Shown here piece by piece: positions 27,226 through 39,373 of a stretch of DNA of 64,000 nucleotides. The DNA comes from Thermoanaerobaculia bacterium (lineage in GTDB: Bacteria > Acidobacteriota > Thermoanaerobaculia > UBA5066): positions 96,001-160,000 of the forward strand of contig CAVRAY010000002.1 of NCBI GenBank assembly GCA_963719225.1. The letters run 5' to 3'. Position numbers and translations under genes: made by a program. The number at the start of each line of letters is the position of its first letter. Position 1 is the first letter of the stretch. The notes beneath the pieces are model-generated. The model saw only the letters and a list, made by a program, of their open reading frames with translations. It was not told where the DNA came from and ran no database searches.

Positions 27226-28053
27226 CTACTTCGCCTCAATCGCAGTGGGTCGTTGGTGACTTCGTCGATGACCGAGGCGAAGCCGGTGAAAGCGGCGCCG
27301 GGGGTGGAGCTGGACAGGACGAGCCGGGCGCCGGTGATGAGGCCCGAAACGCCCATGTCGCGGACGAAGCGATTGATCTGTGTCATTCCGCTCGGGGGAA
27401 TGGAGTAGCTCCTCGCAGCGAGCATCGCACCGGCGGGAGACACGAGCATCGCATCCATCGTAGTGGAAACGTCAGCGTTGCTGGCGAGGATGAGATTGGA
27501 GCGGAAGCCCTCGCCCTCGCGGATGTCGAGGATCGAGCGTGACGAGCCGGCGGGAATCAGATCCGAGGCGCGGACGGCCGGAATGGTCTGGCTCAGGGTT
27601 CCCCCGAAGCCGGGCGTTGACGTCACAGAGACGATGTTGAGAGAGGGCGTGTCCGACGTGATGCGGATGGCTCCGAAGGCGGAGGTCTGGTTGAAGACCG
27701 AGCCGAGGACGTCGAAGTAGGTGACAGACTTGCCGGACTCGAGGTTGAAGGGTCTTCTTGGGGCCGCCCGAGCCATCCTGGTTGTTGCCGAGGAACTTCA
27801 TCGTGAAGGAAGCGGGCGCAGCGCCGACGTTTGCGACCGCGATGTTGGTCGTGTAGAAGGCTCCGTTGACGCCCGGAGAATGGGCGCTCGTGGAAAGGAG
27901 GAAGGTGGTGGTGGTGCCGCCCGGTGGAGCCGACAATTGCCACACGCCGCCGCCCTCCAGCCCGACGTAAAGGGTCGTCTCCTCAGTGGGGTCCAGGACC
28001 AGAACCGGTACGTTCAGGTTCGGCAGGCCCGCGTTGATGGCATACCAGGTACT
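27226..28053 (-). pseudogene. 3' half of a split BNR-repeat gene (last blade plus ~235-aa C-terminal domain)
   Basis: Near-identical to the C-terminal domain at 33307-33990; +1 frameshift near 27750 and -1 near 27248; ancestral stop TAG at 27228-27226. Confidence 0.85.
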
Positions 28054-28450
28054 GACCCGCGGACGCTTACCGGGCTCGAGCACGTTGAACGGATTCTCCG
28101 CGCGGTCGAGGACGAAGCTCTGCATGCGCTGGCTCATCCCGATACCGGCCTTCCCCGCGATCACGCTTGGCAGCCAGCCGCCCGACGGCGTGACCGAGAC
28201 GACCCAGCCCTCCGCGTCCGCCGCCTCGACGGAGGTCGTGCCGGAGAAGAAAGGCCCGGAGAAGGGAGATTCTTCGAGAGTGGAAGAGGCGGCGTCCCGG
28301 CGCGAGAGGTGGACCGCGGGTTCCGGAGCGGCCTCGCGGCGCGCCGGGGCCGTCCTCCACCTTTCTAAGAGACTCTTGAACGGATTCTCTTCTCCCTGGA
28401 ACGGATAAGGGTTCCCGGGCTTCACGTTGGGGTCGTTTCTCGTCCAGTCA
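28054..28450 (-). pseudogene. ggt: Internal fragment of a gamma-glutamyltransferase gene
   Basis: GTTSVEAADAEGWVVSVTPSGGW...GIGMSQRMQSF...PGKRPRV matches the start of the GGT small subunit (catalytic Thr); both ends of the gene are missing. Confidence 0.8.
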
Positions 28451-28784
28451 CTCGCCTTCATCCATGCTACTGCCGGATGCCTGATCATTCTGATCCGGGA
28501 ATACGCGTTGTATGCCACGGCACTCGATGTCCCCGCACTATTTTGTCAGCGGTCCCGACCGTTCACGCCCTCATGCCATCACCATTGCCGTCATGATCAG
28601 AATTGCGATGAACGCCATGAGCCGCGAAAGAACCACACGCACCTGTGGCGCCCAATGCCGCGCCCGAACGGCAAGACCGCCTAATTAAGCCTGCGCATCG
28701 GGTTAGAGCTACCGCGCAGCGTTGCCCCGCCATGCTACGGGCGGCGCATGTGGTTGAACCGCGCGATTTGAACCTCTCCGGCTC

Positions 28785-31700
28785 CTACATCTTGTAGAGG
28801 TCCTCGATTCGATACCGTCCGGGAATCTGAAGATCGCGCACTTTTTCAGGAAGGAACTTTGCTGTGATCATTTCTTGTTGGATGCTAAAATCGAGTTTGC
28901 TCGAGTCCGGGTTTGTCAAAGCGTTCAATGTATTCAATACTCGGCAATTGTTTTCGAACTGTTCCTCCACGAAGTCAATCACCGCGGTTGCCTCGGCTTG
29001 TGTCAACTTGAGTTTGCCGAGGAAGAAGGTCTCTGCTGCCCCCGCCAACCATTTGAGACTGGACTGTGGTTCAGCGGTTGTCGCGCATCCGTATGCGGCC
29101 AGTTCGTAAGTAAGCATCTGCTTGAAGCTCGCGGGTGGACCTGTCTGCCGGAATTGCTCGACGTGAACCACCTCGTGCCGCACGACGGCAGCTGAAGATC
29201 CTCGCGCGTACAACACTGCGTCTTTGGCGGACTTGCGCGACGGGCCTTTCTGTAGATCTGCGATCATCTGCAAGTAGGCCTCAATATCGACATAGATGTC
29301 GGCCGAGCTGTTGGTCCATGCGAAGAGCCCGATTGCTCGAAATCGCGCGCCGAGTGGATGGTCGCGCATCGCGTGCAGGGTCACACCCTGCAAAGACATG
29401 CCTGAAGCCTCCACGTCGTCGCGGATGAACGCGAGCATCACGGTTTCGAGCGGCTGCATCACGTTCGGAGACGCCGCCGTGAGATTCGACGCGAGTCCCC
29501 CGAGTGCCCCAACACCAAGTGCGTTCGCCGTTCCGGCCAGCATTGCCGGCGACACACCCGTCGCCGCCGTGTCCGCAAATGCAAGCTCTCGCGAGATGGC
29601 CGGGTTTCCGCCCCCGGTGCCTCCGCCTGCGCTGCCGTCGCCTCCGCCTCCGGCTCCCTGAAACTCACTCTGCGATCCTGTGACTTTGAAGCCGTCGCCT
29701 CCGCCGTCGGGTACTCCGCGCTGATCCATGTCCCGTCCGTGATTGATGCGCGCCCCGTCGGCGGAGATGTTCGAACCCGAACCACTGCCGGCGGCACCGC
29801 TACCGCCACCCTTTCCGTGCATGGTCTTCCACATGTCGGCGGCTTCCTTGCCCATTGCAACCGCCTGGTCCGTCACCGTCTTCAGATTTGCGCCTGCGAG
29901 CTTGCCGGCTTCGGTGGCCGCATTAAGGGTGCCCGCGGAAACCGCTTCCGACAGCGCCTGAGTACCGGCCAACCCGCTCATGTCTCGGAACATGTTCGCG
30001 CTGGCCACGGCGCCAAGTACCGCCGAGAGGCCCGCCGGGTCCGGGATCGTGGTTGGATTGAGTATGTTGAGGACCGGCGCACCCAGCTGGCCAGGCCTCA
30101 GGTCTTCGGCCATCGCTCGGCTGCCCATGTTGACCGCCGCGATCTCTGTCGGCTGCAGCGGAATCGGCGAGTCCTGCCAGTTCCAGAACCGCGTAATGTC
30201 CAGTTTCTCTGCCGAGTTGGAACGTCCCAGCACCGCCTCGGCGAACACGCCGCCGGTAGGGATCGGAACAAGGCGATCGTCGCGTTGTTCCGATGTAAGC
30301 GCCCGTTCATTCAAAAGCTCGCCCCATGTCGTGCCGACGTCGTCGATGCCGGCGGCCTCGTCCTCTTCGATGGGAGCGCGCAGCACGAGGTAGTTGCCGG
30401 CTACGGCCACGGGAGTCGGCTCCACCTGGTCACCCAACGGCCTGCCCTTCCACGTGAAACGCGAAAGCAGCATTACGAGCGTAGCGGAGTCCAGTCTCGC
30501 CAGCACAGCTTGAGAATAGTAGGCACGATTCGCTTGCAGATGCGCCATGAGCTCGGCTTTTCGATTCGACGGATCCGCCGTAACAAACGCGACTTTCTGC
30601 ATGCTGGTATCTGGCGCGAGGTCGAGCGGCATTGGTAGCGCGAACTGCTGTGTCGTAGTGCGATAGTGAAGCGTCATCGTGCCGGAATCGGCATCGGCGT
30701 CCACCTTCGCGACTTGAATGGTCGTGACGTTGCGCAGCGGCAGGCCGCCGGGCAGGTCGACCTGAAATGTCGTGTCAGGAACCGCGAATGTGCTGCTGTC
30801 AGCTGGCACACCTGCTTGGTCGAAACGGGCACGGTCAACGCGCACACTATCGAAGGATACGGCCACCAACTCCACGTCCCCCGGCACCGTAGCGAGCAAA
30901 GGGCCGGGACTGGTGATGCGACGAACGGCAAGCGGCGCGGGCGCCGTCAGAACAGTGGGCGCACTCGCCGACGGCTGTGCGCTCGAGGCTGGCGTCGCGA
31001 TTCCGTCCGCGGAAGTAACACGGGCCATCGTGGCCGCGACGCCAACTGCCGCCACGTCGCTGAAACGCGTCGGCAGTTGCATTCTGACCGCTGCGCGGAC
31101 CTCCACCTCGCCACGATCGTCCCGCAGCAAGGCGGCCACTCGTCGCGTAAGTGCGGCTGCGAGCAGCTGCCCGCGGAAGCGCGCCACGACGTCGGAAGCT
31201 CCGTCGCCACTGAAGTCCAGTAGTTCAAACGGCAGGAACAGCACGCGTTGCGCGGAATGCAGCTGCGCCAATACTCGGTAAATCTGCACGACCTCGTAGT
31301 ACTGCACAGTGAGCGCGTGCATGTGGTTGTAATTGGCGACCACGCGCGTGCTGACCTGCTCGTGCTCGGACTGGGACACTTCGCGGACCGACGATGCGCG
31401 CCTGTTGCGGACCGACGTTGAGTGCTGCTCGGTCCGGTCGTTTACGTGCTGAGACATTTCAGCTGTTACCGAGCGGTTGCCGACCGACCAAGAACTACTG
31501 AGGGCACTCATCTCGGTCTCCGCTTCCTGCGATGACTTGGCCATACCTGCGCCGATACCAAAGACACCGGTAACGCCCATGTAGTCGCCGGCCACGCCGC
31601 CTCCCGCGCTGACCCCGCTGGACCTGCCGACGCTGCTGGACTTCGACCAGCCTGAGCTCATCGAGCCGCCGACCTGCATCTCGCTGGCGACGGCATTCTG

Positions 31701-32516
31701 TACCTCACTGATCGCTCGCGAATGTTCGCTGGCGTTGTCCAGCCGGTCGGTCTCTTCGATCGTATCCGAGGTACTCGTGCGGGTTCTGCGGGACCAATCG
31801 ACGACGGCAATGCGCGTAGCCTCGCCCGGCGCTAGCGCGAGCGAATGAAGCATGTGTCCCAGCGTGATCCCTTTCGCGTACCACGACTGCGAAAGGGTGA
31901 CGAGCGCGCCGACTGCGGGCTTGCCGAAACCGGCCGCATCGTCTACCGCAGGCTGAAGAGAGATGACTCCCGTAAGCGGCTGCAGGGCCGTGTCTTCGGT
32001 GACGGCCAGCATGACCAGGGAGTTGTAGTAGACGCGCTCTGTCGGAAATTCGCCCAACCGCGGACGCAACGCCTCAGCATGCGCTTCTTCAGGATCGCCT
32101 CCAGCGCCGCTGGCGTCGCTCACCATGCGCTTTGCCACGAGGCGTGGCGGCCAAAGAGCAAACTCGCGAACGCTCTCAATCGCGAGCGCCTGCTTTAGGG
32201 CGTCCGCGTCTTCATTGGACATGCCCCTCAAGCTCGACAGCGACACGGACGCGCTGTCACGTTCTTCATCAGGAAGTCCCTCGATGAGGTGGTTGCGCGA
32301 CAGGCCCGTCTCGCCAGTGTCAGATTGGATCGAAGCGGCCGCGTTCGCGAATAGCCAGGATGACCCGAGGTCGAAGATGGTCTCAACCCCAATTCTCCCG
32401 AGCGCGCTGGCGGCGCTGTCGCTGACGCCGAGGAGGGCTGACACGCGCAACTGCAGGACTTCGTCCGCTGATAGGGCTGAGTAACCTGCCTTGAGATGAT
32501 CGGCGACGGTTGTCAT
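28785..32516 (-). CDS. Large hypothetical protein (1243 aa): putative beta-pore-forming/translocating core with C-terminal HExxH metallopeptidase-like domain
   Basis: Long ORF with AAGGAG RBS; S/T/G-rich alternating segment; Gly-rich linker; HEVVH at 29177-29163. The function is inferred. Confidence 0.8.
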   Translation of the reverse strand: MTTVADHLKAGYSALSADEVLQLRVSALLGVSDSAASALGRIGVETIFDLGSSWLFANAAASIQSDTGETGLSRNHLIEGLPDEERDSASVSLSSLRGMSNEDADALKQALAIESVREFALWPPRLVAKRMVSDASGAGGDPEEAHAEALRPRLGEFPTERVYYNSLVMLAVTEDTALQPLTGVISLQPAVDDAAGFGKPAVGALVTLSQSWYAKGITLGHMLHSLALAPGEATRIAVVDWSRRTRTSTSDTIEETDRLDNASEHSRAISEVQNAVASEMQVGGSMSSGWSKSSSVGRSSGVSAGGGVAGDYMGVTGVFGIGAGMAKSSQEAETEMSALSSSWSVGNRSVTAEMSQHVNDRTEQHSTSVRNRRASSVREVSQSEHEQVSTRVVANYNHMHALTVQYYEVVQIYRVLAQLHSAQRVLFLPFELLDFSGDGASDVVARFRGQLLAAALTRRVAALLRDDRGEVEVRAAVRMQLPTRFSDVAAVGVAATMARVTSADGIATPASSAQPSASAPTVLTAPAPLAVRRITSPGPLLATVPGDVELVAVSFDSVRVDRARFDQAGVPADSSTFAVPDTTFQVDLPGGLPLRNVTTIQVAKVDADADSGTMTLHYRTTTQQFALPMPLDLAPDTSMQKVAFVTADPSNRKAELMAHLQANRAYYSQAVLARLDSATLVMLLSRFTWKGRPLGDQVEPTPVAVAGNYLVLRAPIEEDEAAGIDDVGTTWGELLNERALTSEQRDDRLVPIPTGGVFAEAVLGRSNSAEKLDITRFWNWQDSPIPLQPTEIAAVNMGSRAMAEDLRPGQLGAPVLNILNPTTIPDPAGLSAVLGAVASANMFRDMSGLAGTQALSEAVSAGTLNAATEAGKLAGANLKTVTDQAVAMGKEAADMWKTMHGKGGGSGAAGSGSGSNISADGARINHGRDMDQRGVPDGGGDGFKVTGSQSEFQGAGGGGDGSAGGGTGGGNPAISRELAFADTAATGVSPAMLAGTANALGVGALGGLASNLTAASPNVMQPLETVMLAFIRDDVEASGMSLQGVTLHAMRDHPLGARFRAIGLFAWTNSSADIYVDIEAYLQMIADLQKGPSRKSAKDAVLYARGSSAAVVRHEVVHVEQFRQTGPPASFKQMLTYELAAYGCATTAEPQSSLKWLAGAAETFFLGKLKLTQAEATAVIDFVEEQFENNCRVLNTLNALTNPDSSKLDFSIQQEMITAKFLPEKVRDLQIPGRYRIEDLYKM

Positions 32517-32664
32517 GGTTGCCTCTCCTTCGCTTGGTCAACGTCAACTGAGGGATCGAAGAATTGCCGCATGAGCGCGGCGACGTCATTGACGGGATCT
32601 AAAACCATACGTGGGCGGACACCGCGTTATCAGCCGAGCTACTACGATCGGCGCATCTCGTTGT

Positions 32665-33270
32665 ACCGGAATCGGTGGATCTGAGGACCCCGCCGCCATA
32701 TGTCCAGGCCTAGATCGTGGCGGGGTTGGCAGGATTGATGGCCTGGGCTGGCACGTTCAGGTTCGTAACTTCCGCCATGGCGGCGGTCCACGTCCCACCA
32801 GCGTCAGTGGACTTGAAGACCCCGCCAGCCATCCCGGCATAGAGTGTAGCGGGGTCTACGGGATTTATGGCCAGAGCCAGGACCTGCAGGTTCGTGAGTC
32901 CCGTGTTGGCGGCGGCCCAGGTGCTGCCGGAGTTGGTGGACTTGAAGACCCCGTCGATCGTCGCAGCGTAGAGCGTAGCGGGGGTCGAGGGATTGATGGC
33001 CAGGGCGCTGACGGCCCCGGACGTGAGTCCCGTGCTGGCGTCCGTCCAAATGCCGCCGGCGTCAGTCGACCTGATGACCCCGCTGCCGCCCGCGGCGTAG
33101 ATCGTGGCGGGAGTCACTGGGTTGATGGCCAGAGCTGTGATGTTTCCGTCGAATGGCCCGCCGCCCGTCCAGACGCCCTGTCCGGCGTGAGCGACCGTGG
33201 AGAACGATGTGCCGATCGCCAGGAGGAGGCAGGCTGCCGTGTAACGCAGTGGAGAGTCTGTGTGTCGCAT
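32665..33270 (-). pseudogene. 5' half of the split BNR-repeat gene
   Basis: Signal peptide plus ~3.5 repeats; premature TAG at 32712-32710, after which the frame continues AWTYGGGVLRSTDSG up to the insertion. Confidence 0.85.
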
Positions 33271-33306: not shown

Positions 33307-36300
33307 CTATTTCGCTTCGACGGCGGTGGGATCGTTGGTGGTCTCGTCGATGACGGAGGCGAAGCCGGTGAAAGCGGCTCCTGGCGTGGATGAAGAGAGA
33401 ACGAGCCGGGCGCCGGTGACCAGGCCCGAGACTCCCATGTCGCGGACGACCCGATTGATCTGCGTCATGCCGTTCGGGGGAACGGAGTAGCTCCTCGTGG
33501 CAAGGGTCGCGCCGGCAGGAGATACGAGAGCGGCGTCGACCGTCGTGGAAACGTCGGCGTTGCTGGCGAGGATGAGATTGGAGCGGAAGCCGTCGCCCTC
33601 GCGGATGTAGAGGATCGAGCCTGAAGAGCCGGCGGGAATCAAGTTCGAGGCAGAAACGGCCGGAATGGTCTGGCTCAACGTTCCGCCAAACCCGGGCGTG
33701 GACGTCACGGAGACGATGTTGAGAGAAGGGGTGTCCGACGAGATACGGATAGCTCCGAAGTTCGAGGTCTGGTTGAAGACCGAGCCGAGAACGTCCAAGT
33801 AGGTGACAGACTTGCCGGACTCGAGGTTGAAGGTCTTCTCGGGGCCGCTCGAGCCGTCCTGGTTGTTGCCGAGGAACTTCATCGTGAAATTCGCGGGCGC
33901 GGCGCCGACGTTGGCGACCGCGACTTTCGTCGTATAGAAGGCGAGGTTGAGGCCGCTCGAATGGGCGCTCGCGGGAAGAAGCCAGATGTACGGCGCGGAC
34001 CCGGAGACGGCGAGGGGTTGGGCGAGGACCGCGGTCGGATCATTCGTCGTCTCGTCGATGACGGAGGCGAGAGCGGTGAAGGAGGCGCCCGTAGTCGAGG
34101 AGGAGAGAACGAGACGTGCGCCGGTGACGGGACCCGAGACTCCCATGTCCCTCACGACGCGGCTGATCTGGGTCATGCCGTTCGGCGGAACGGGGTAGGT
34201 CTTCGTCGCGAGGGTCTCGCCCGCCGGCGAGACGAGCGCGACGTCGACTTCCGTGGTGACGGAGGATCCGCTCGCGAGGATGAGGTTGGAGCGGAAACCG
34301 TCGCCCTCGCGGATGTAGAGGATCGATCGTGTGGAGCCGGCGGGAATGAGATCGGTGAAAGGGATGGTCGGAATCGCCTGACCGAAAGTTCCGCCGAAGC
34401 CGGGAGTGGAAGTCACCGAGACGATGTCAAGCGTCGAGGAATTCGACGTGATGCGGATGGCGCCGAAGTTATTCGTCTGGCTGAAGACCGAGCCGAGGAC
34501 GTCGAGGAACGTCGTGGACTTGCCCGGATCGAGGTTGAAGGACCGCTCGGGACCGGTCGAGCCGTCCTGGTTGTTGCCGAGGAACTTCAGTGTAAAGGAA
34601 GCCGCCGAGACGCCGGTGTTCGCGACCGCGACGTTCGTCGTGTAGAAGGCGCCGTTTACGCCAGAGGAGTGAGCGCTCGTGGGGAGGAGTGCGGTGATCG
34701 TGCTCGCTGCTGGAGCCGTCAATTGCCACACGCCGCCGCCCTCGAGCCCGGCGTAGAGGGTCACGGTTGCCCCCGTTGGGGCCAGGGCCAGAGCGTTGAC
34801 GTACAGGCTCGGCAGGCCGGTGTTAATCGCCTCCCAGGTGCCCCCGGAGTCGGTGGACCTGAGGACCCCGCCATTCGTCCCGGCGTACAGCGTGGCTGGC
34901 GTCGTCGGATCGATGGCCAGGGCGTTGACGCTCAGGTTCGTCAGCCCCGTGTTGGCGGCGGCCCAGGTCGACCCGCCGTTAGTGCTCTTGAAGACGCCCC
35001 TGTCAGTCCCGGCATAGAGCGTGGCCGTCTTCGAAGGATCGATGACCAGGTTTTCAACGCGGGTGGCGGTCAGGCCTGCGTTGATGGCGCTCCAGCTCCC
35101 CCCACCGTTGGTGCTCTTGAAGGCGCCGCCGTTCGACGTGCCGGCGTAGAGCGTGGCAGGCGTCGAGGGATCGATGGCCAGGGCCGTCACGTAAGTCACG
35201 TAAGTGTCGGGCGCAAGTTGCAGACCTGTGTTGATCGCGCTCCAGCTCCCCCCGCCGTTGGTGCTCTTGAAGAGGCCCCCGCCACCCTCCCGATAGCTGC
35301 GAGTCCCTGCATAGAGCGTGGCCGGCGACAAAGGATCAATCACCAGCGCGTAGACGGAACCCAGTGCGAAGACATAACTCCCGAGGCTCCCCGACCAGTG
35401 AGCTCCGCCGTCGGTGCTTTTGTAGAACCCGGGGTATTCATAATAGAAATCAGATGATGTGCCGGCGTAGACGGTGTCCGGCGCCGAAGGATCGACGGCC
35501 AGGGCCTGGAGCTTGGAGTAGAGGGCTTGGATAGCCGTCCAGCTCCCTCCGCCGTCGGTGCTCTTGAAGACGCTGCCATTGGGGTAACTGCCGGCGTACA
35601 CGGTGGTCGGCGCCGAGGGACCAACGGCCAGGGCGGTGACAGAGGACTTCATGCCCGTGTTGGTGGCCGTCCAGCTCTCCCCGCCGTCGGTGCTCTTGAA
35701 GACTCCTAGGAGAGTGCCGGCATAGAGGGTGGCTCCCGAAGGATCAATGGCGAGGGCCTGGACACCGCTGTCGGTCAGGCCGGAGTTGATGGGGCTCCAG
35801 CTCCCCCCGCCGTTGGTGCTCTTGAAGACGCCGCCGCCATAGGTTCCGGCGTAGAGGGTGGCCGGCGCAGAAGGGTCGATGACCAGGGCGTAGACGTACC
35901 GATTCGCCAGGCCCGTGTTGATGGCCGTCCAGCTCTCCCCACCGTTGGTGCTCTTGAAGGCACCGTTATACGCACCGGCGTAGAGCGTGGCGGGAGTCGA
36001 GCGATCGATGACCAGGGCGTCGACGGAGACGTTGGTCAGGCCGGTGTTGATGGCGGTCCAGCTCCCCCCGCCGTTGGTGCTCTTGAAGACACCGCCGCCC
36101 TCGTTCGCCGTGCTCGCGTAAAGCGTGGTCGGCGTCGACGGGTCAACCGCCAGGGCGATGACCAGGGTGCTGGTCAGGCCCGTGTTGATGGCTGTCCAGC
36201 TCGCCCCGCCGTTGGTGCTCTTGAAGACGCCCGCCAGGAGCGTGCCGGCGTAGAGCGTAGCTGGAGTCATAGGCTCAATGGCCAGGGTGTTGACATAAGT

Positions 36301-36690
36301 GTCTGTCAGGCCAGTGTTGATGGCTATCCAGCTCTCCCCGCCATTGGTGCTCTTGAAGACGCCGCCCTGAGTACCGGCGTACACCGTGGCTGGGTTCGAG
36401 GGGTCGATGGCCAGGGCGTAGACGCCCACGTTCGTCAGTCCGGTGTTGGCGGCAGCCCATGTGCCGCCCGAGTCGGTGCTCTTGAGGACGCCGCGGCCGT
36501 CGCCTGTGCCGGCGTAGAGCGTCGCCGGGTTCGCGGGGTTTATGGCCAGGGCTCTGATGTCCCCGCCGTAGGGTCCGTTGGTTGTCCAGGCTCCGACGCC
36601 CGCCGAGACTGTCGATGCGGGAGAAGCCAGGCCTGCGAGTATGAGGAGGGGAAGAAGACGGCGGATGCGGTTGTGCGTGGCGTTCTTCAT
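33307..36690 (-). CDS. Secreted BNR/Asp-box repeat beta-propeller protein with two tandem ~235-aa C-terminal domains
   Basis: Signal peptide; about 14 repeats of ALAIDPxxPATLYAGT..GVFKSTxGGxSW; duplicated LLP.SAHSSG...ASVIDETTNDPT domain. Confidence 0.92.
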   Translation of the reverse strand: MKNATHNRIRRLLPLLILAGLASPASTVSAGVGAWTTNGPYGGDIRALAINPANPATLYAGTGDGRGVLKSTDSGGTWAAANTGLTNVGVYALAIDPSNPATVYAGTQGGVFKSTNGGESWIAINTGLTDTYVNTLAIEPMTPATLYAGTLLAGVFKSTNGGASWTAINTGLTSTLVIALAVDPSTPTTLYASTANEGGGVFKSTNGGGSWTAINTGLTNVSVDALVIDRSTPATLYAGAYNGAFKSTNGGESWTAINTGLANRYVYALVIDPSAPATLYAGTYGGGVFKSTNGGGSWSPINSGLTDSGVQALAIDPSGATLYAGTLLGVFKSTDGGESWTATNTGMKSSVTALAVGPSAPTTVYAGSYPNGSVFKSTDGGGSWTAIQALYSKLQALAVDPSAPDTVYAGTSSDFYYEYPGFYKSTDGGAHWSGSLGSYVFALGSVYALVIDPLSPATLYAGTRSYREGGGGLFKSTNGGGSWSAINTGLQLAPDTYVTYVTALAIDPSTPATLYAGTSNGGAFKSTNGGGSWSAINAGLTATRVENLVIDPSKTATLYAGTDRGVFKSTNGGSTWAAANTGLTNLSVNALAIDPTTPATLYAGTNGGVLRSTDSGGTWEAINTGLPSLYVNALALAPTGATVTLYAGLEGGGVWQLTAPAASTITALLPTSAHSSGVNGAFYTTNVAVANTGVSAASFTLKFLGNNQDGSTGPERSFNLDPGKSTTFLDVLGSVFSQTNNFGAIRITSNSSTLDIVSVTSTPGFGGTFGQAIPTIPFTDLIPAGSTRSILYIREGDGFRSNLILASGSSVTTEVDVALVSPAGETLATKTYPVPPNGMTQISRVVRDMGVSGPVTGARLVLSSSTTGASFTALASVIDETTNDPTAVLAQPLAVSGSAPYIWLLPASAHSSGLNLAFYTTKVAVANVGAAPANFTMKFLGNNQDGSSGPEKTFNLESGKSVTYLDVLGSVFNQTSNFGAIRISSDTPSLNIVSVTSTPGFGGTLSQTIPAVSASNLIPAGSSGSILYIREGDGFRSNLILASNADVSTTVDAALVSPAGATLATRSYSVPPNGMTQINRVVRDMGVSGLVTGARLVLSSSTPGAAFTGFASVIDETTNDPTAVEAK

Positions 36691-36806
36691 GGTCCCCTTC
36701 CTACGTGATGATCAAGATGTCGCCGCGACGTCGGGAAGTCGTTGGAGAAACAATGGAAAGTTCCGGGATTCTTCCGGGAGCGCTGATGCGGATTCGATTC
36801 GGGAAG
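36650..36806. repeat. Duplicate of the 39330-39490 block (signal-peptide codons, divergent promoter, first codons of the wHTH-FHA gene)
   Basis: ATCAAGATGTCGCCGCGACGTCGGGAAGTCGTTGGAGAAACA is identical in both copies; remnant ATG at 36786 reads MRIRFGK versus MRIQFGE. Confidence 0.9.
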
Positions 36807-36844
36807 GTGCCGGGCCGGGCTCAGGGCCCGAACGGCCTGCCCGC

Positions 36845-39373
36845 TCACGGGTAAACGAAGAAGTACGGGTCGTAGAGCAGCGTCTTGTTTCCGGGTGCGC
36901 TGTGATACTCCTTCGACTGTCCGCTGACGGTGTCCGTAACGTCGATCCAGAATTCCACGTCCGTGAACGTCGGGATCGCGATCCAGGCCCGGCCGTTATC
37001 CGTCGCCGTGTTGATCCGGATCAGATACTCGTACGTGCTCGCGTTCGCGATCCAGAAGGCGCCTATAACGTCGGTCAGCTTCGCCTTTGAGAGGGTCGAC
37101 ACGGCGCCGCCCGCGTACTGGTTCCTCCAGTGGCTGCGGATCCGGTAGCGCCCCCCGGCGAGGCACATTGTGGCCGCGTCCTCGACACAGCTACTCGCCC
37201 CAGCGGACGCCACGGTGATCGACTTCGTCGTCGCATTCGAGCCGCCGCTGTTGCTCGCGGTAAGCGTAACCGGGAACGCGCCCGCCGTCGCAAAGGCGTG
37301 GGTCGGACTCTGCGCAGGGGAGCTAAACCCGTCCCCGAAATCCCACGACCACGACGTCGGCCCGCCGGTCGACGTGTCCGTGAACTGGATCGTCTGGCCG
37401 GCTGAGGGGGACGAAGGGGTGAACGAGAAGTTCGCGATGGTGCCGCTCGTAGGAGCTGTCAATTGCCACACGCTGCCGCCGTAGAGTCCGGCGTAAAGGG
37501 TCGTCGCTCCTGTGGGATCGAGGACGAGAGTTTTGATGTTCAGGTTCGGCAGACCAGCATTAACGGCCTCCCACGTACTGCCGGAGTTGGTGGACCTGAA
37601 GACCCCGCCGCCCCAGATCGCGGCGTAGAGCGTTATCGGAGCTGCTGGATTGATGGCCAGGGCAGTGACGTGCATGCCCGTCAGCCCCGTGTTGGCGGCG
37701 GCCCATGTGTCGCCAGAATCGACGGACTTGAAGACCCCGCCGTTGTATGTCCCGGCGTAAAGCGTGGCGCTAGTCGAAGGATCGATGGCCAAGGCGAAGA
37801 CGTTCAGGCCCGTCAGGCCCGAAGCAGCCCAGCTGGCCCCGGAGTCGGTGGACTTGAAGACTCCGCCGGGGCCGTATGTACCGGCGTAGAGGGTAGCCGG
37901 GGACGAGGGATCGATGGCCAAGGCGCTGAAGTACGCGTTCGTCAGGCCCGTATTCGCGGCGGTCCAACTGGCCCCCGAGTCAGTGCTCTTGAAGACGCCG
38001 CCGCCCAACGTGCCAGCGTAGAGCGTGGCGGGGGTCGTGGGGTTGATGGCAACGGCACTCACGTTCAGGTTTGTCAATCCCGTGCTGGCGGCCGCCCACG
38101 TACCGCCGGAGTCCGTGGACTTGAAGAGTCCGCTGCCGTTCGTCCCGGTATAGAGGGTTGTGGGGCTCGACGGATTGATGGCGAGGACGTATGGTGAATT
38201 CGACAATCCCGTGTTGGCGGCGGTCCAGGTGCCGCCTGAGTCGGTGGACTTGAGGACTCCTCCGCCGCCGTACGTCCCGGCGTAGAGCGTGGCGGGGGTC
38301 GTGGGGTTAATCGCCAGGGCCAAGACGTCTACGTTTGTCAGGCCCGTGTCGGCACGGACCCACGTGCTCCCTGAGTCGGTGGACTTGAAAACCCCATCGC
38401 CCGCGGCATAGAGCGTGGCAGGCGCCACGGGATTGATGGCCAGGGTTCGGATCGAAAAGTCCGTCGTTTCCCTATGGACGGCGACCCATGTCCCGCCAGC
38501 GTTGGTGGACTTGAAGATTTCGCCACCGCCCGCGGCGTAGAGCGTTGTGGGGGTCCGCGGATCGATGGCCAGGGCGCTGGCCCAATTCACCAGTCCACTG
38601 TTGGCGGCTCCCCACGTGCGGCCGGAATTGATGGACTTGAAGACTCCGCTGTTCGTCAAGACGTAGAGCGTTGTCGGCGTCGCGGGATCGATGACCGGGG
38701 TGGAGACGGAGTTGAACCACCACGGGTCGTACGGCAGTCCCACGTTGGCGTCGGCCCAGGTGCCGCCGGAGTCACTGGACCTGAAGACTCCGCCACTCCC
38801 CGCGGCGTATAGCGTTGTGGGAGTCGCGGGGTCGATGGCCAGGGAATAGACGTCCACGCTCGGCAGTCCCTCGCTGGCGGCGGCCCAAGTGCCGCCGGAG
38901 TCGGTGGACTTGAAGACCCCGCTGCCGCCCGCGGCGTAGATCGTGGCGGGAGTCACTGGGTTAATGGCCAGGGCGGAGATGTACACGCTCGGCAGTCCCT
39001 CGCTGGCGGCGGCCCAGGTGCCGCCGGAGTCCGTGGACTTGAAGACTCCGTCATTCGCCCCGGCGTAGAGCGTGGCGGGAGTTAGTGGGTTGATGGCCAG
39101 GGCGTAAACGGACACGCCGGTCAGGCCGCTGTTGACGGCGGCCCAACTGGCTCCGCCATCGGTGCTCTTGAAGACGCCGCCGCCATTCGCCCCGGCATAG
39201 AGCGTGGCGGGGTTCACGGGATCGATGGCCAGGGCTGTGATGTCTCCGCCGTACGGCCCACCGGTCGTCCAGACCCCGACGCCCGCCGCGACCGTCGAGG
39301 CGGGAAAGGCCAGGCCAACGAGAATGAGGAGGGGAAGAAGAGGGCGGATTCGGCTGTGTGCGGCGTTCTTCAT
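36845..39373 (-). CDS. Secreted BNR-repeat beta-propeller protein with PKD domain and Cys-containing C-terminal domain
   Basis: Signal peptide; about 14 repeats; PKD motif FTDTSTGGPTSWSWDFGDG; C-terminal CVEDAATMCLAGGRY...VTDT.SG..KEY. Confidence 0.92.
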   Translation of the reverse strand: MKNAAHSRIRPLLPLLILVGLAFPASTVAAGVGVWTTGGPYGGDITALAIDPVNPATLYAGANGGGVFKSTDGGASWAAVNSGLTGVSVYALAINPLTPATLYAGANDGVFKSTDSGGTWAAASEGLPSVYISALAINPVTPATIYAAGGSGVFKSTDSGGTWAAASEGLPSVDVYSLAIDPATPTTLYAAGSGGVFRSSDSGGTWADANVGLPYDPWWFNSVSTPVIDPATPTTLYVLTNSGVFKSINSGRTWGAANSGLVNWASALAIDPRTPTTLYAAGGGEIFKSTNAGGTWVAVHRETTDFSIRTLAINPVAPATLYAAGDGVFKSTDSGSTWVRADTGLTNVDVLALAINPTTPATLYAGTYGGGGVLKSTDSGGTWTAANTGLSNSPYVLAINPSSPTTLYTGTNGSGLFKSTDSGGTWAAASTGLTNLNVSAVAINPTTPATLYAGTLGGGVFKSTDSGASWTAANTGLTNAYFSALAIDPSSPATLYAGTYGPGGVFKSTDSGASWAASGLTGLNVFALAIDPSTSATLYAGTYNGGVFKSVDSGDTWAAANTGLTGMHVTALAINPAAPITLYAAIWGGGVFRSTNSGSTWEAVNAGLPNLNIKTLVLDPTGATTLYAGLYGGSVWQLTAPTSGTIANFSFTPSSPSAGQTIQFTDTSTGGPTSWSWDFGDGFSSPAQSPTHAFATAGAFPVTLTASNSGGSNATTKSITVASAGASSCVEDAATMCLAGGRYRIRSHWRNQYAGGAVSTLSKAKLTDVIGAFWIANASTYEYLIRINTATDNGRAWIAIPTFTDVEFWIDVTDTVSGQSKEYHSAPGNKTLLYDPYFFVYP

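What the first reader, a model, noticed from the sequence alone, without database searches (positions are those of the whole stretch)
28049..32666. A 4.6-kb insertion without transposase splits a repeat gene at GTAC
The pseudogene starting at 33270 stops at ...GVLRSTDSG (32665) and resumes at STWYAINAGLPNL (28053), matching the intact paralog's RSTNSGSTWEAVNAGLPNL. GTAC lies at both junctions, as a target duplication or microhomology. No recombinase gene or terminal inverted repeat is visible, so the cargo arrived by an in-trans or illegitimate mechanism. Both halves have since decayed (one stop, two frameshifts), which favours a real, older event over misassembly.
Basis: seen in the sequence. 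Interest (0 to 1): 0.7.

Follow-up and report, generated by a model that had tools for sequence, protein, structure and literature searches.

The report
Foreign toxin-like gene splits repeat gene
A 4.6-kb patchwork of DNA sits inside a broken bacterial repeat-protein gene; it likely arrived by repair-type end joining rather than as a transposon, and it carries an intact gene of a large, unnamed protein family predicted to pair a membrane-pore module with interchangeable enzyme tails.

Summary
The insertion is real, but GTAC is not a target duplication. The halves rejoin in register with their paralogs at 32666|28054 with nothing duplicated; a join at GTAC loses one codon (26 of 26 host repeats). 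Contigs of strains 4-5% diverged span the left junction. One of them has a different right side, so the right junction rests on register alone. The 4,611-nt insert is a mosaic: an intact 1,243-aa gene found in 0 of 28 congeners, a spacer, and an internal gamma-glutamyltransferase fragment that forms the right end. An end inside a housekeeping gene argues against a transposon or cassette; the host has two Ku genes, so end-joining capture is likeliest (inferred). The cargo is the stronger result: a conserved ~935-aa core (2,277 clusters) with 41 unrelated tail groups among 124, the named ones mostly cell-wall hydrolases or peptidases. Here the tail has a HExxH zinc motif. A Ser/Thr/Gly-rich hairpin and two weak searches point to an aerolysin-type pore module; this is unproven.

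The parts
32666..33270 (-). 5' half of the split BNR/Asp-box repeat gene: hydrophobic leader, three full repeats and part of the last repeat; premature TAG at 32712-32710
   Evidence: (Sortilin-Vps10/BNR hits below cut-off)
28055..32665 (-). The insert, 4,611 nt, no target duplication (28054-32664 if the broken Gly codon ended in T)
   Evidence: register against the paralogs' last repeats
32663..32666 (.). GTAC at the left junction; overlaps the host flank by one base; not a duplication
28049..28052 (.). GTAC inside the 3' half, two bases beyond the junction
32642..32668 (-). Direct repeat copy A, starting at the left junction; loosely attC-like by eye, not detected by an attC model
28735..28761 (-). 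Direct repeat copy B, 24 nt after the cargo stop; 22/27 identical to copy A
32522..32530 (-). Shine-Dalgarno-like purine run before the cargo ATG
   Evidence: sequence
28785..32516 (-). Intact 1,243-aa cargo gene (P0001): conserved core (about residues 1-935) plus variable tail; no Pfam, NCBIfam or PDB sequence match
31461..31676 (-). Residues 281-352: Ser/Thr/Gly-rich segment with a hydrophobic tip, predicted membrane-spanning beta-hairpin (low model confidence)
30582..30884 (-). Residues about 545-645: confidently predicted beta-sandwich, weakly like PLAT/C2 domains
   Evidence: Z 5.8, rmsd 3.3, 92 aligned
28788..29711 (-). Tail, residues 936-1243, with H1114-E-x-x-H1118 and conserved E1138 (gluzincin-like zinc motif, activity inferred)
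28464..28784 (.). Low-GC spacer of unknown origin, no match elsewhere in the genome
28055..28463 (-). Internal gamma-glutamyltransferase fragment forming the right end of the insert; 76% to the host GGT (gaps counted), up to 82% to congeners' GGTs
27226..28054 (-). 3' half of the split gene: rest of the last repeat and one C-terminal domain; +1 frameshift near 27750, -1 near 27245
33307..39373 (-). Two intact upstream paralogs (1,127 and 842 aa, 13 repeats each) used to define the empty site

Best explanation
A single BNR-repeat gene is split, with no bases duplicated, by a 4,611-nt mosaic of an intact foreign gene, a spacer and a piece cut from inside a gamma-glutamyltransferase gene, which was likely joined into a chromosome break by homology-independent end joining (Ku/LigD type) rather than by a transposase or integrase. 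Shown: the anatomy, the exact register, no duplication, the shared left junction, decay of both host halves, and an intact cargo. Inferred: one or two loose DNA pieces were ligated into a break in a dispensable third copy of a paralog array inside a 24-kb island. The host halves then decayed while the cargo stayed open in two strains. In the X1 lineage a later deletion likely removed the right part. Also inferred: the cargo is a polymorphic conflict protein whose core would oligomerise into an aerolysin-type beta-barrel, with its zinc-peptidase-like tail acting on a neighbouring cell's envelope.
For: Register: 26 of 26 host repeats fix the empty site, and the split repeat best matches the last repeat of the nearest paralog. 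Left junction in two contigs at 95-96% identity. The right end falls inside GGT, about 115 codons before that gene's end, with only 1-2 nt of overlap; an element end would not be expected there. Ku: 2 matches over the cut-off; LigD-like ligase and polymerase pieces; ComEC. Ku/LigD captured a 1.3-kb foreign fragment, twice two in tandem, into a chromosomal break in Sinorhizobium (PMC6379672, passages). Cargo is foreign: 0 of 28 congeners; GC3 0.72 against 0.82-0.83 for the paralogs; nearest named relative is a Lysobacter MAG and phyla are mixed on the tree. Cargo is polymorphic: 41 tail groups among 124; 48 of 73 differences from the X1 copy lie in the last 20%. Pore lead.
Against: The X1 contig shares only the left junction and continues into another paralog's start at 28773, so the history needs at least one more rearrangement. 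The 27-nt repeat flanking the cargo, one copy exactly at the junction, is rare by chance (2 of 3,000 random 27-mers reach 22/27), and end joining does not explain it. No LigD match reached the full-length cut-off (0 of 5). Having Ku does not show that Ku did it. The published capture used cut, mostly compatible ends and 1.3 kb. For the pore reading, the Foldseek hits have TM 0.05-0.08 and rmsd 16-25 A, the Atlas score is 0.80 (a lead only), and the hairpin region has pLDDT under 50. No immunity gene is conserved beside homologues, and 51 of 67 tails scanned have no Pfam match.
Confidence: 0.6

Rival explanations
1. The cargo is a decayed integron-type cassette or other site-specific unit bounded by the two 27-nt repeats, placed in trans at a secondary site; the GGT piece came separately.
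For: Repeat A begins at the left junction and repeat B lies 24 nt after the stop; they are the only such pair in the genome. The X1 strain diverges 12 nt before repeat B. The genome has an integron integrase. A homologue is followed by a full attC in loci L085 and L087 (L085 was in the training set).
Against: An attC model built from 15 sites lists neither repeat among 32 hits at E up to 10. Against those sites, box spacings are 2-3 nt short and the AAC box is missing. Only 2 of 100 homologue loci, near-identical to each other, carry an attC hit beside the gene. The motif occurs in 1 of 400 other genomes of the phylum. The true right end is in GGT, about 680 nt beyond repeat B.
Confidence: 0.15
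2. Only the left junction is the original insertion end. The right side is a later deletion or a local misassembly that brought a GGT piece and the 3' half of a different paralog next to the cargo.
For: The X1 strain has another paralog's start at this side. Contig C2 holds a second, diverged copy of about 200 kb of core genome, so the assembly may be mixed.
Against: The 3' half resumes at the exact base where the 5' half stops, within a repeat of about 130 nt, and both sides are last-repeat type. The GGT piece has no near-identical source in the genome (76%). The window's segment shares IS copies 99.9-100% identical with C1.
Confidence: 0.15
3. GTAC is the 4-bp target duplication of a transposon that later lost its transposase and ends, with a 3-nt deletion at the left copy.
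For: GTAC is present at both sides. The genome has multi-copy IS elements.
Against: It needs an extra exact 3-nt loss. A shared 4-mer arises by chance in 21% of trials. No terminal inverted repeat appears among the 25 longest pairs, the ends occur nowhere else in the genome, and the right end is GGT coding sequence.
Confidence: 0.07

Closest known systems
NHEJ capture of heterologous DNA in Sinorhizobium meliloti (PMC6379672; passages read)
   Same: Foreign DNA joined into a chromosomal break without homology or a recombinase; tandem capture of two pieces seen; the host encodes several Ku proteins.
   Different: That work used an engineered break and a 1.3-kb cassette. Here a natural 4.6-kb mosaic is inferred from sequence only.
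[quoted passage not shown]
   Same: Recombinase-free integration of foreign DNA at microhomologies.
   Different: SPDIR gives indels of 3 to about 100 bp; this insert is about 45 times the upper size.
Polymorphic toxin systems (PMC3482391; passages)
   Same: Conserved N-terminal part with unrelated, exchangeable C-terminal enzyme domains; faster divergence in the tail.
   Different: No conserved immunity gene, orphan tail cassettes or secretion locus beside the homologues; no known trafficking domain. 'Aerolysin' does not occur in the 300,000 characters held of that paper; its supplements were not read.
Aerolysin-family beta-pore-forming toxins (PF01117, PF03318; features from PMC6572795 passages)
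   Same: Predicted elongated beta structure with very long strands, a Ser/Thr-rich hairpin region and an attached beta-sandwich; nearest named rows in two searches.
   Different: No sequence match; structural superposition is poor; the protein is much larger, with a helical N-terminal domain and a C-terminal enzyme tail; no clear signal peptide.
Integron gene cassette
   Same: Single promoterless-looking gene between two related imperfect repeats; host integrase present.
   Different: The repeats fail an attC model, and the insert extends beyond them into a GGT fragment.

Membership tests
Insertion sequence / transposon | Target-site duplication flanking the insert | tested here: not met
   A GTAC join loses a codon against 26 of 26 host repeats
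Insertion sequence / transposon | Terminal inverted repeats | tested here: not met
   None of the 25 longest of 219 pairs joins the two ends; shorter pairs not shown
Insertion sequence / transposon | Transposase in the element, or further copies of its ends | tested here: not met
IS200/IS605 or REP-type (Y1) element moved in trans | Y1 transposase in the genome | tested here: not met
   0 matches; control rang in 6 of 14 genomes; genome 97% complete
IS91/ISCR one-ended transposition | Y2 transposase in the genome | tested here: inconclusive
   0 matches, but the control rang in 0 of 14 genomes
Integron cassette | attC site with R and L boxes at canonical spacing | tested here: not met
   Model from 15 attC sites, filters off: neither repeat among 32 hits at E up to 10; the model is narrow, mostly one family
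Integron cassette | Integron integrase available | tested here: met
   TIGR02249 at 467 bits on C1, cut-off 265
Ku/LigD end-joining capture | Ku in the host | tested here: met
   2 matches over the cut-off
Ku/LigD end-joining capture | LigD in the host | tested here: inconclusive
   5 partial matches on separate frames, none over the cut-off, one with a TGA
Ku/LigD end-joining capture | Junctions with no or minimal homology and no duplication | tested here: met
   0-2 nt overlap at the right end; the left donor flank is unknown
Ku/LigD end-joining capture | Dependence of the event on Ku/LigD | not testable with these tools
   Historical event
Polymorphic toxin | Conserved N-terminal part with diverse C-terminal enzyme domains | tested here: met
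   41 tail groups among 124; 12 of the 16 tails with a Pfam hit (67 scanned) are hydrolase or peptidase types
Polymorphic toxin | Adjacent immunity gene | tested here: not met
   No downstream ORF on the same strand in the insert; no neighbour family in more than 8 loci; one 144-aa downstream gene in 4 loci
Polymorphic toxin | Known export signal or secretion locus | tested here: inconclusive
   No Pfam/NCBIfam domain; only a weak N-terminal hydrophobic stretch; no signal-peptide predictor available
Aerolysin-type beta-pore-forming protein | Ser/Thr-rich insertion hairpin | tested here: met
   S+T+G 54% against 21% elsewhere, mean over 139 of 139 sequences; composition only
Aerolysin-type beta-pore-forming protein | Aerolysin pore-forming-module fold | tested here: inconclusive
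   Foldseek best E 9e-4, TM under 0.1; Atlas 0.80
Aerolysin-type beta-pore-forming protein | Profile match to PF01117 or PF03318 | tested here: not met
   0 Pfam families at E up to 0.1; 0 PDB sequences
Aerolysin-type beta-pore-forming protein | Oligomerisation and membrane pores | not testable with these tools
   The complex predictor was not available; needs a bench assay
Gluzincin-type zinc peptidase (tail; motif definition recalled) | HExxH plus a downstream Glu ligand | tested here: met
   HExxH in 19 of 20 related tails; E1138 in at least 90%; fold and activity not tested

The most novel reading that the evidence does not exclude
The cargo defines an undescribed, very large family of single-chain polymorphic toxins in which an aerolysin-type beta-pore module carries an interchangeable cell-wall hydrolase or peptidase tail. 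It spreads across bacterial phyla (with hits on haloarchaeal plasmids) as a lone gene without a secretion locus or immunity partner, and this locus is a natural snapshot of its capture into a chromosome by end joining.
Probability: 0.3. Interest if true: 0.8.

Novelty: new variant of a known kind. Interest (0 to 1): 0.5.

Why it matters
The insertion shows how a large gene can enter a bacterial chromosome with no mobile-element machinery. That route has been shown in the laboratory but is rarely pinned to a natural locus with a reconstructable empty site. The cargo matters more: thousands of unannotated proteins share this core and differ in enzyme tails. If the core is a beta-pore, it would link pore-forming proteins to polymorphic antibacterial enzymes and give a directly testable function to a family that Pfam and NCBIfam do not cover. 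As an event alone, a foreign insertion in a redundant paralog inside an island is ordinary.

Tried and rejected
The tables were cut (821 and 116 piece rows hidden), so this lack of cover shows nothing. No RNA holder was listed. Empty allele: not found among the matches listed for 40 relatives (63 rows not shown); the whole island is missing at this site in 9 congeners, and no joint skipping the insert is listed. The contigs lacking the extra base at 27750 are other strains or paralogs and do not date the frameshift. My regex attC scans missed even the host's true attC and were dropped in favour of the model. No Rfam hit, tRNA or promoter excess (1 found against 0.9 expected). No resolvase match. 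The first structure model (pLDDT 61) gave no useful match. The wide structural search of the better model did not list aerolysin-family chains; its rows cover only the beta-sandwich, best Z 5.8. The viral library gave nothing interpretable. The whole-protein Atlas search gave one cluster auto-named DUF4332 at 0.80. A protein-level frameshift census timed out and was replaced by a DNA-level count. The complex predictor was not available. Earlier scan notes: nothing. Literature: six searches listed no paper that describes this family; I saw listings and abstract starts only, apart from the passages cited.
Full report
Observation. The region holds three tandem minus-strand genes for BNR/Asp-box repeat proteins. 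Two are intact (842 and 1,127 aa, 13 repeats each). The third starts at 33270, stops within a repeat at 32666 and resumes at 28054. It carries one premature stop and two frameshifts.

The junction. GTAC occurs at both sides, but it is not a duplication. In 26 of 26 repeats of the two host paralogs, and 29 of 31 repeats in five relatives' proteins (the other two have no Trp within six residues), two residues separate the Gly from the Trp. Joining at GTAC leaves one. Joining 32666 to 28054 restores the paralog pattern with nothing lost or doubled. Some 4-mer is shared near two random junctions in 21% of 200,000 trials under my window of shifts. The residues before the break score best against the last repeat of the adjacent paralog (third best in the other), and the 3' half begins with the remainder of a last repeat. 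Resuming at the exact base of a repeat of about 130 nt is the main argument that the halves are one gene.

Is it real? Seven public runs hold parts of the stretch; I laid six. A 4,793-nt contig of run X1 matches 28773-32993 with 167 differences, and a 272-nt contig of X2 matches 32601-32872 with 13. Both cross the left junction. They are one study, but 4-5% diverged from the window, so they are not its source, and the insertion predates that divergence. Against my reading, the X1 contig leaves the window 12 nt after the cargo stop and enters the first codons of another repeat paralog (joint 33247 to 28773). The right side therefore differs between strains, and the right junction has no independent support. 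Decay looks real: two frameshifts in about 830 nt, against 7 isolated non-triplet gaps in 140,901 bases aligned between two core-genome copies in the same contig. One of the two frameshifts lies in a short C run, so a read error cannot be excluded for it.

What the insert is. It is 4,611 nt: about 150 nt of upstream DNA, an intact 1,243-aa gene, a low-GC spacer, and about 410 nt from the interior of a gamma-glutamyltransferase gene (PF01019 over the cut-off). The GGT piece is 76% identical to the host's only GGT and at most 82% to congeners' full-length matches, whereas the host GGT is 84-88% to the same congeners. It is thus from an unsampled relative, or old and decayed. It ends in mid-gene exactly at the junction, with 1-2 nt of overlap. 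A 27-nt direct repeat (22/27) flanks the cargo, one copy at the left junction. Only 2 of 3,000 random 27-mers of the region do as well, the pair is unique in the genome, and the motif occurs in 1 of 400 other genomes of the phylum. The locus lies in a 24-kb island (about 27209-51284) missing at this site in 9 of the 9 informative congeners fetched (a tenth stretch ended at its contig end) and in the contig's second core copy. The island's six other large ORFs show no integrase or transposase family.

How it arrived. Transposon features fail: no duplication, no terminal inverted repeat among the 25 longest pairs, no further copies of the ends. The genome has no Y1 transposase or resolvase match; the IS91 test was uninformative. 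It does have an integron integrase with attC sites, but a model built from 15 attC sites does not detect either repeat. It found attC beside the homologous gene in only 2 of 100 loci, one of them a training sequence. The host has two Ku genes, LigD-like pieces below the full-length cut-off, and ComEC. Ku/LigD-dependent capture of foreign DNA into chromosomal breaks, including two fragments in tandem, is reported in PMC6379672 (passages). SPDIR makes only indels up to about 100 bp (passages). I therefore favour end-joining capture of loose DNA (0.6). This is inference from junction anatomy and gene content. The flanking repeat remains unexplained.

The cargo. It is found in 0 of 28 congeners (0 of 19 high-quality genomes), has lower GC3 than its neighbours, and has no Pfam, NCBIfam or PDB sequence match. 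Relatives are many: 1,405 of 7,993 candidates scored, 2,277 clusters at 50% identity, 360 of 415 genome stretches, 33 plasmid records including haloarchaea and 1 weak phage record. On a quick tree of 54 rows (the window plus 53 named-genome loci; metagenome and unnamed rows left out) phyla are interleaved, with 17 Pseudomonadota rows needing 14 changes. The nearest row is a Lysobacter MAG; no root or donor was tested. The first 935 or so residues are conserved. The tails of 124 proteins fall into 41 unconnected groups, 26 of them singletons. Of 67 tails scanned, 51 have no Pfam hit. Of the 16 with a hit, 12 are hydrolase or peptidase types: Amidase_6/NlpC, Amidase_2, GH25, Hedgehog/M15, CHAP, DUF2272, beta-lactamase-like and C70; 10 of these exceed the curated cut-off. 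Amidase_6 and DUF2272 are discussed as wall-degrading papain-like enzymes in PMC10318531 (passages). The window's tail has HExxH in 19 of 20 related tails and a conserved Glu 20 residues further on. The X1 copy is intact and 94% identical, with 48 of 73 differences in residues 1001-1243. No neighbouring gene is conserved across the loci.

What the core may do. A model of residues 140-860 from 139 sequences (mean pLDDT 73, pTM 0.61) shows very long beta-strands, a low-confidence middle segment and a confident beta-sandwich weakly like PLAT/C2 domains. The middle segment is 54% Ser/Thr/Gly against 21% elsewhere, with a hydrophobic tip, as described for the insertion region of aerolysin-family pores (PMC6572795, passages). 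Foldseek's first six rows are aerolysin, followed by lysenin and other beta-pore proteins, but the best E is 9e-4 and TM-scores are under 0.1. The Atlas's nearest named clusters are aerolysin and ETX/MTX2 at 0.80. The wide structural search did not recover them. Long strands alone could give such rows. I read the protein as a likely polymorphic conflict protein with a possible beta-pore module (about 0.35 for the pore). How it is exported, and why it needs no immunity gene, are open.

Novelty. The event is a new natural instance of a known kind of recombinase-free insertion. Six literature searches listed no description of the cargo family; the library omits most subscription journals, and I read no supplements, including those of PMC3482391, which may list such architectures. 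Earlier scan notes held nothing. The host lineage is not named by any search.

Verdict. Observation partly confirmed; duplication reading rejected; illegitimate insertion supported. Interest 0.5, carried mainly by the cargo family.

Noticed in passing
G000 contig C2: about 6-222 kb and 610-801 kb: Two syntenic, inverted copies of about 200 kb of core genome, 67-85% identical. The second has higher GC (70-72%) and lists no copy of the IS that the first shares with C1: a chimeric join or contaminant from a congener, or a very large transfer.
   Followed up: partly
window 27209-51284: 24-kb island between a phosphatase-like gene and a Mur ligase gene, holding the repeat paralogs, two winged-helix/FHA regulators, two Ser/Thr kinases, a TonB-type barrel and a PAP2 protein; no integrase or tRNA found.
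   Followed up: partly
G000 C1:1108000-1116122: Integron integrase with its attC sites downstream of the integrase gene and on the same side; one attC is interrupted by a multi-copy IS, present twice in tandem here.
   Followed up: partly
window 27472-28518 (-): The GGT fragment is in frame with the 3' half, giving a 348-aa chimeric open frame up to the first frameshift; probably accidental.
   Followed up: no
L056:4845-5522: A Pelosinus homologue has a Hedgehog N-terminal signalling domain as its tail (PF01085, 160 bits).
   Followed up: no
L033-L040: Eight Legionella genomes carry the family with a shared, unnamed tail type also found in other phyla.
   Followed up: no
L064, L071, L072, L134; and L003, L006, L015, L025, L090: Two small partner genes recur next to some homologues: a 144-aa gene just downstream in 4 loci (possible immunity gene) and a 276-aa gene in 5 loci.
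   Followed up: no
G000 C1:3158000-3165000: Type VI secretion-like genes (ClpV-like, VgrG-like; named by eye from translations) with an apparent frameshift at a G run in the ClpV-like gene, possibly a read error.
   Followed up: no
run X1, 4,793-nt contig: Its copy of the 5' half skips 142 nt (32993 to 33136), so that strain's copy is broken too.
   Followed up: no
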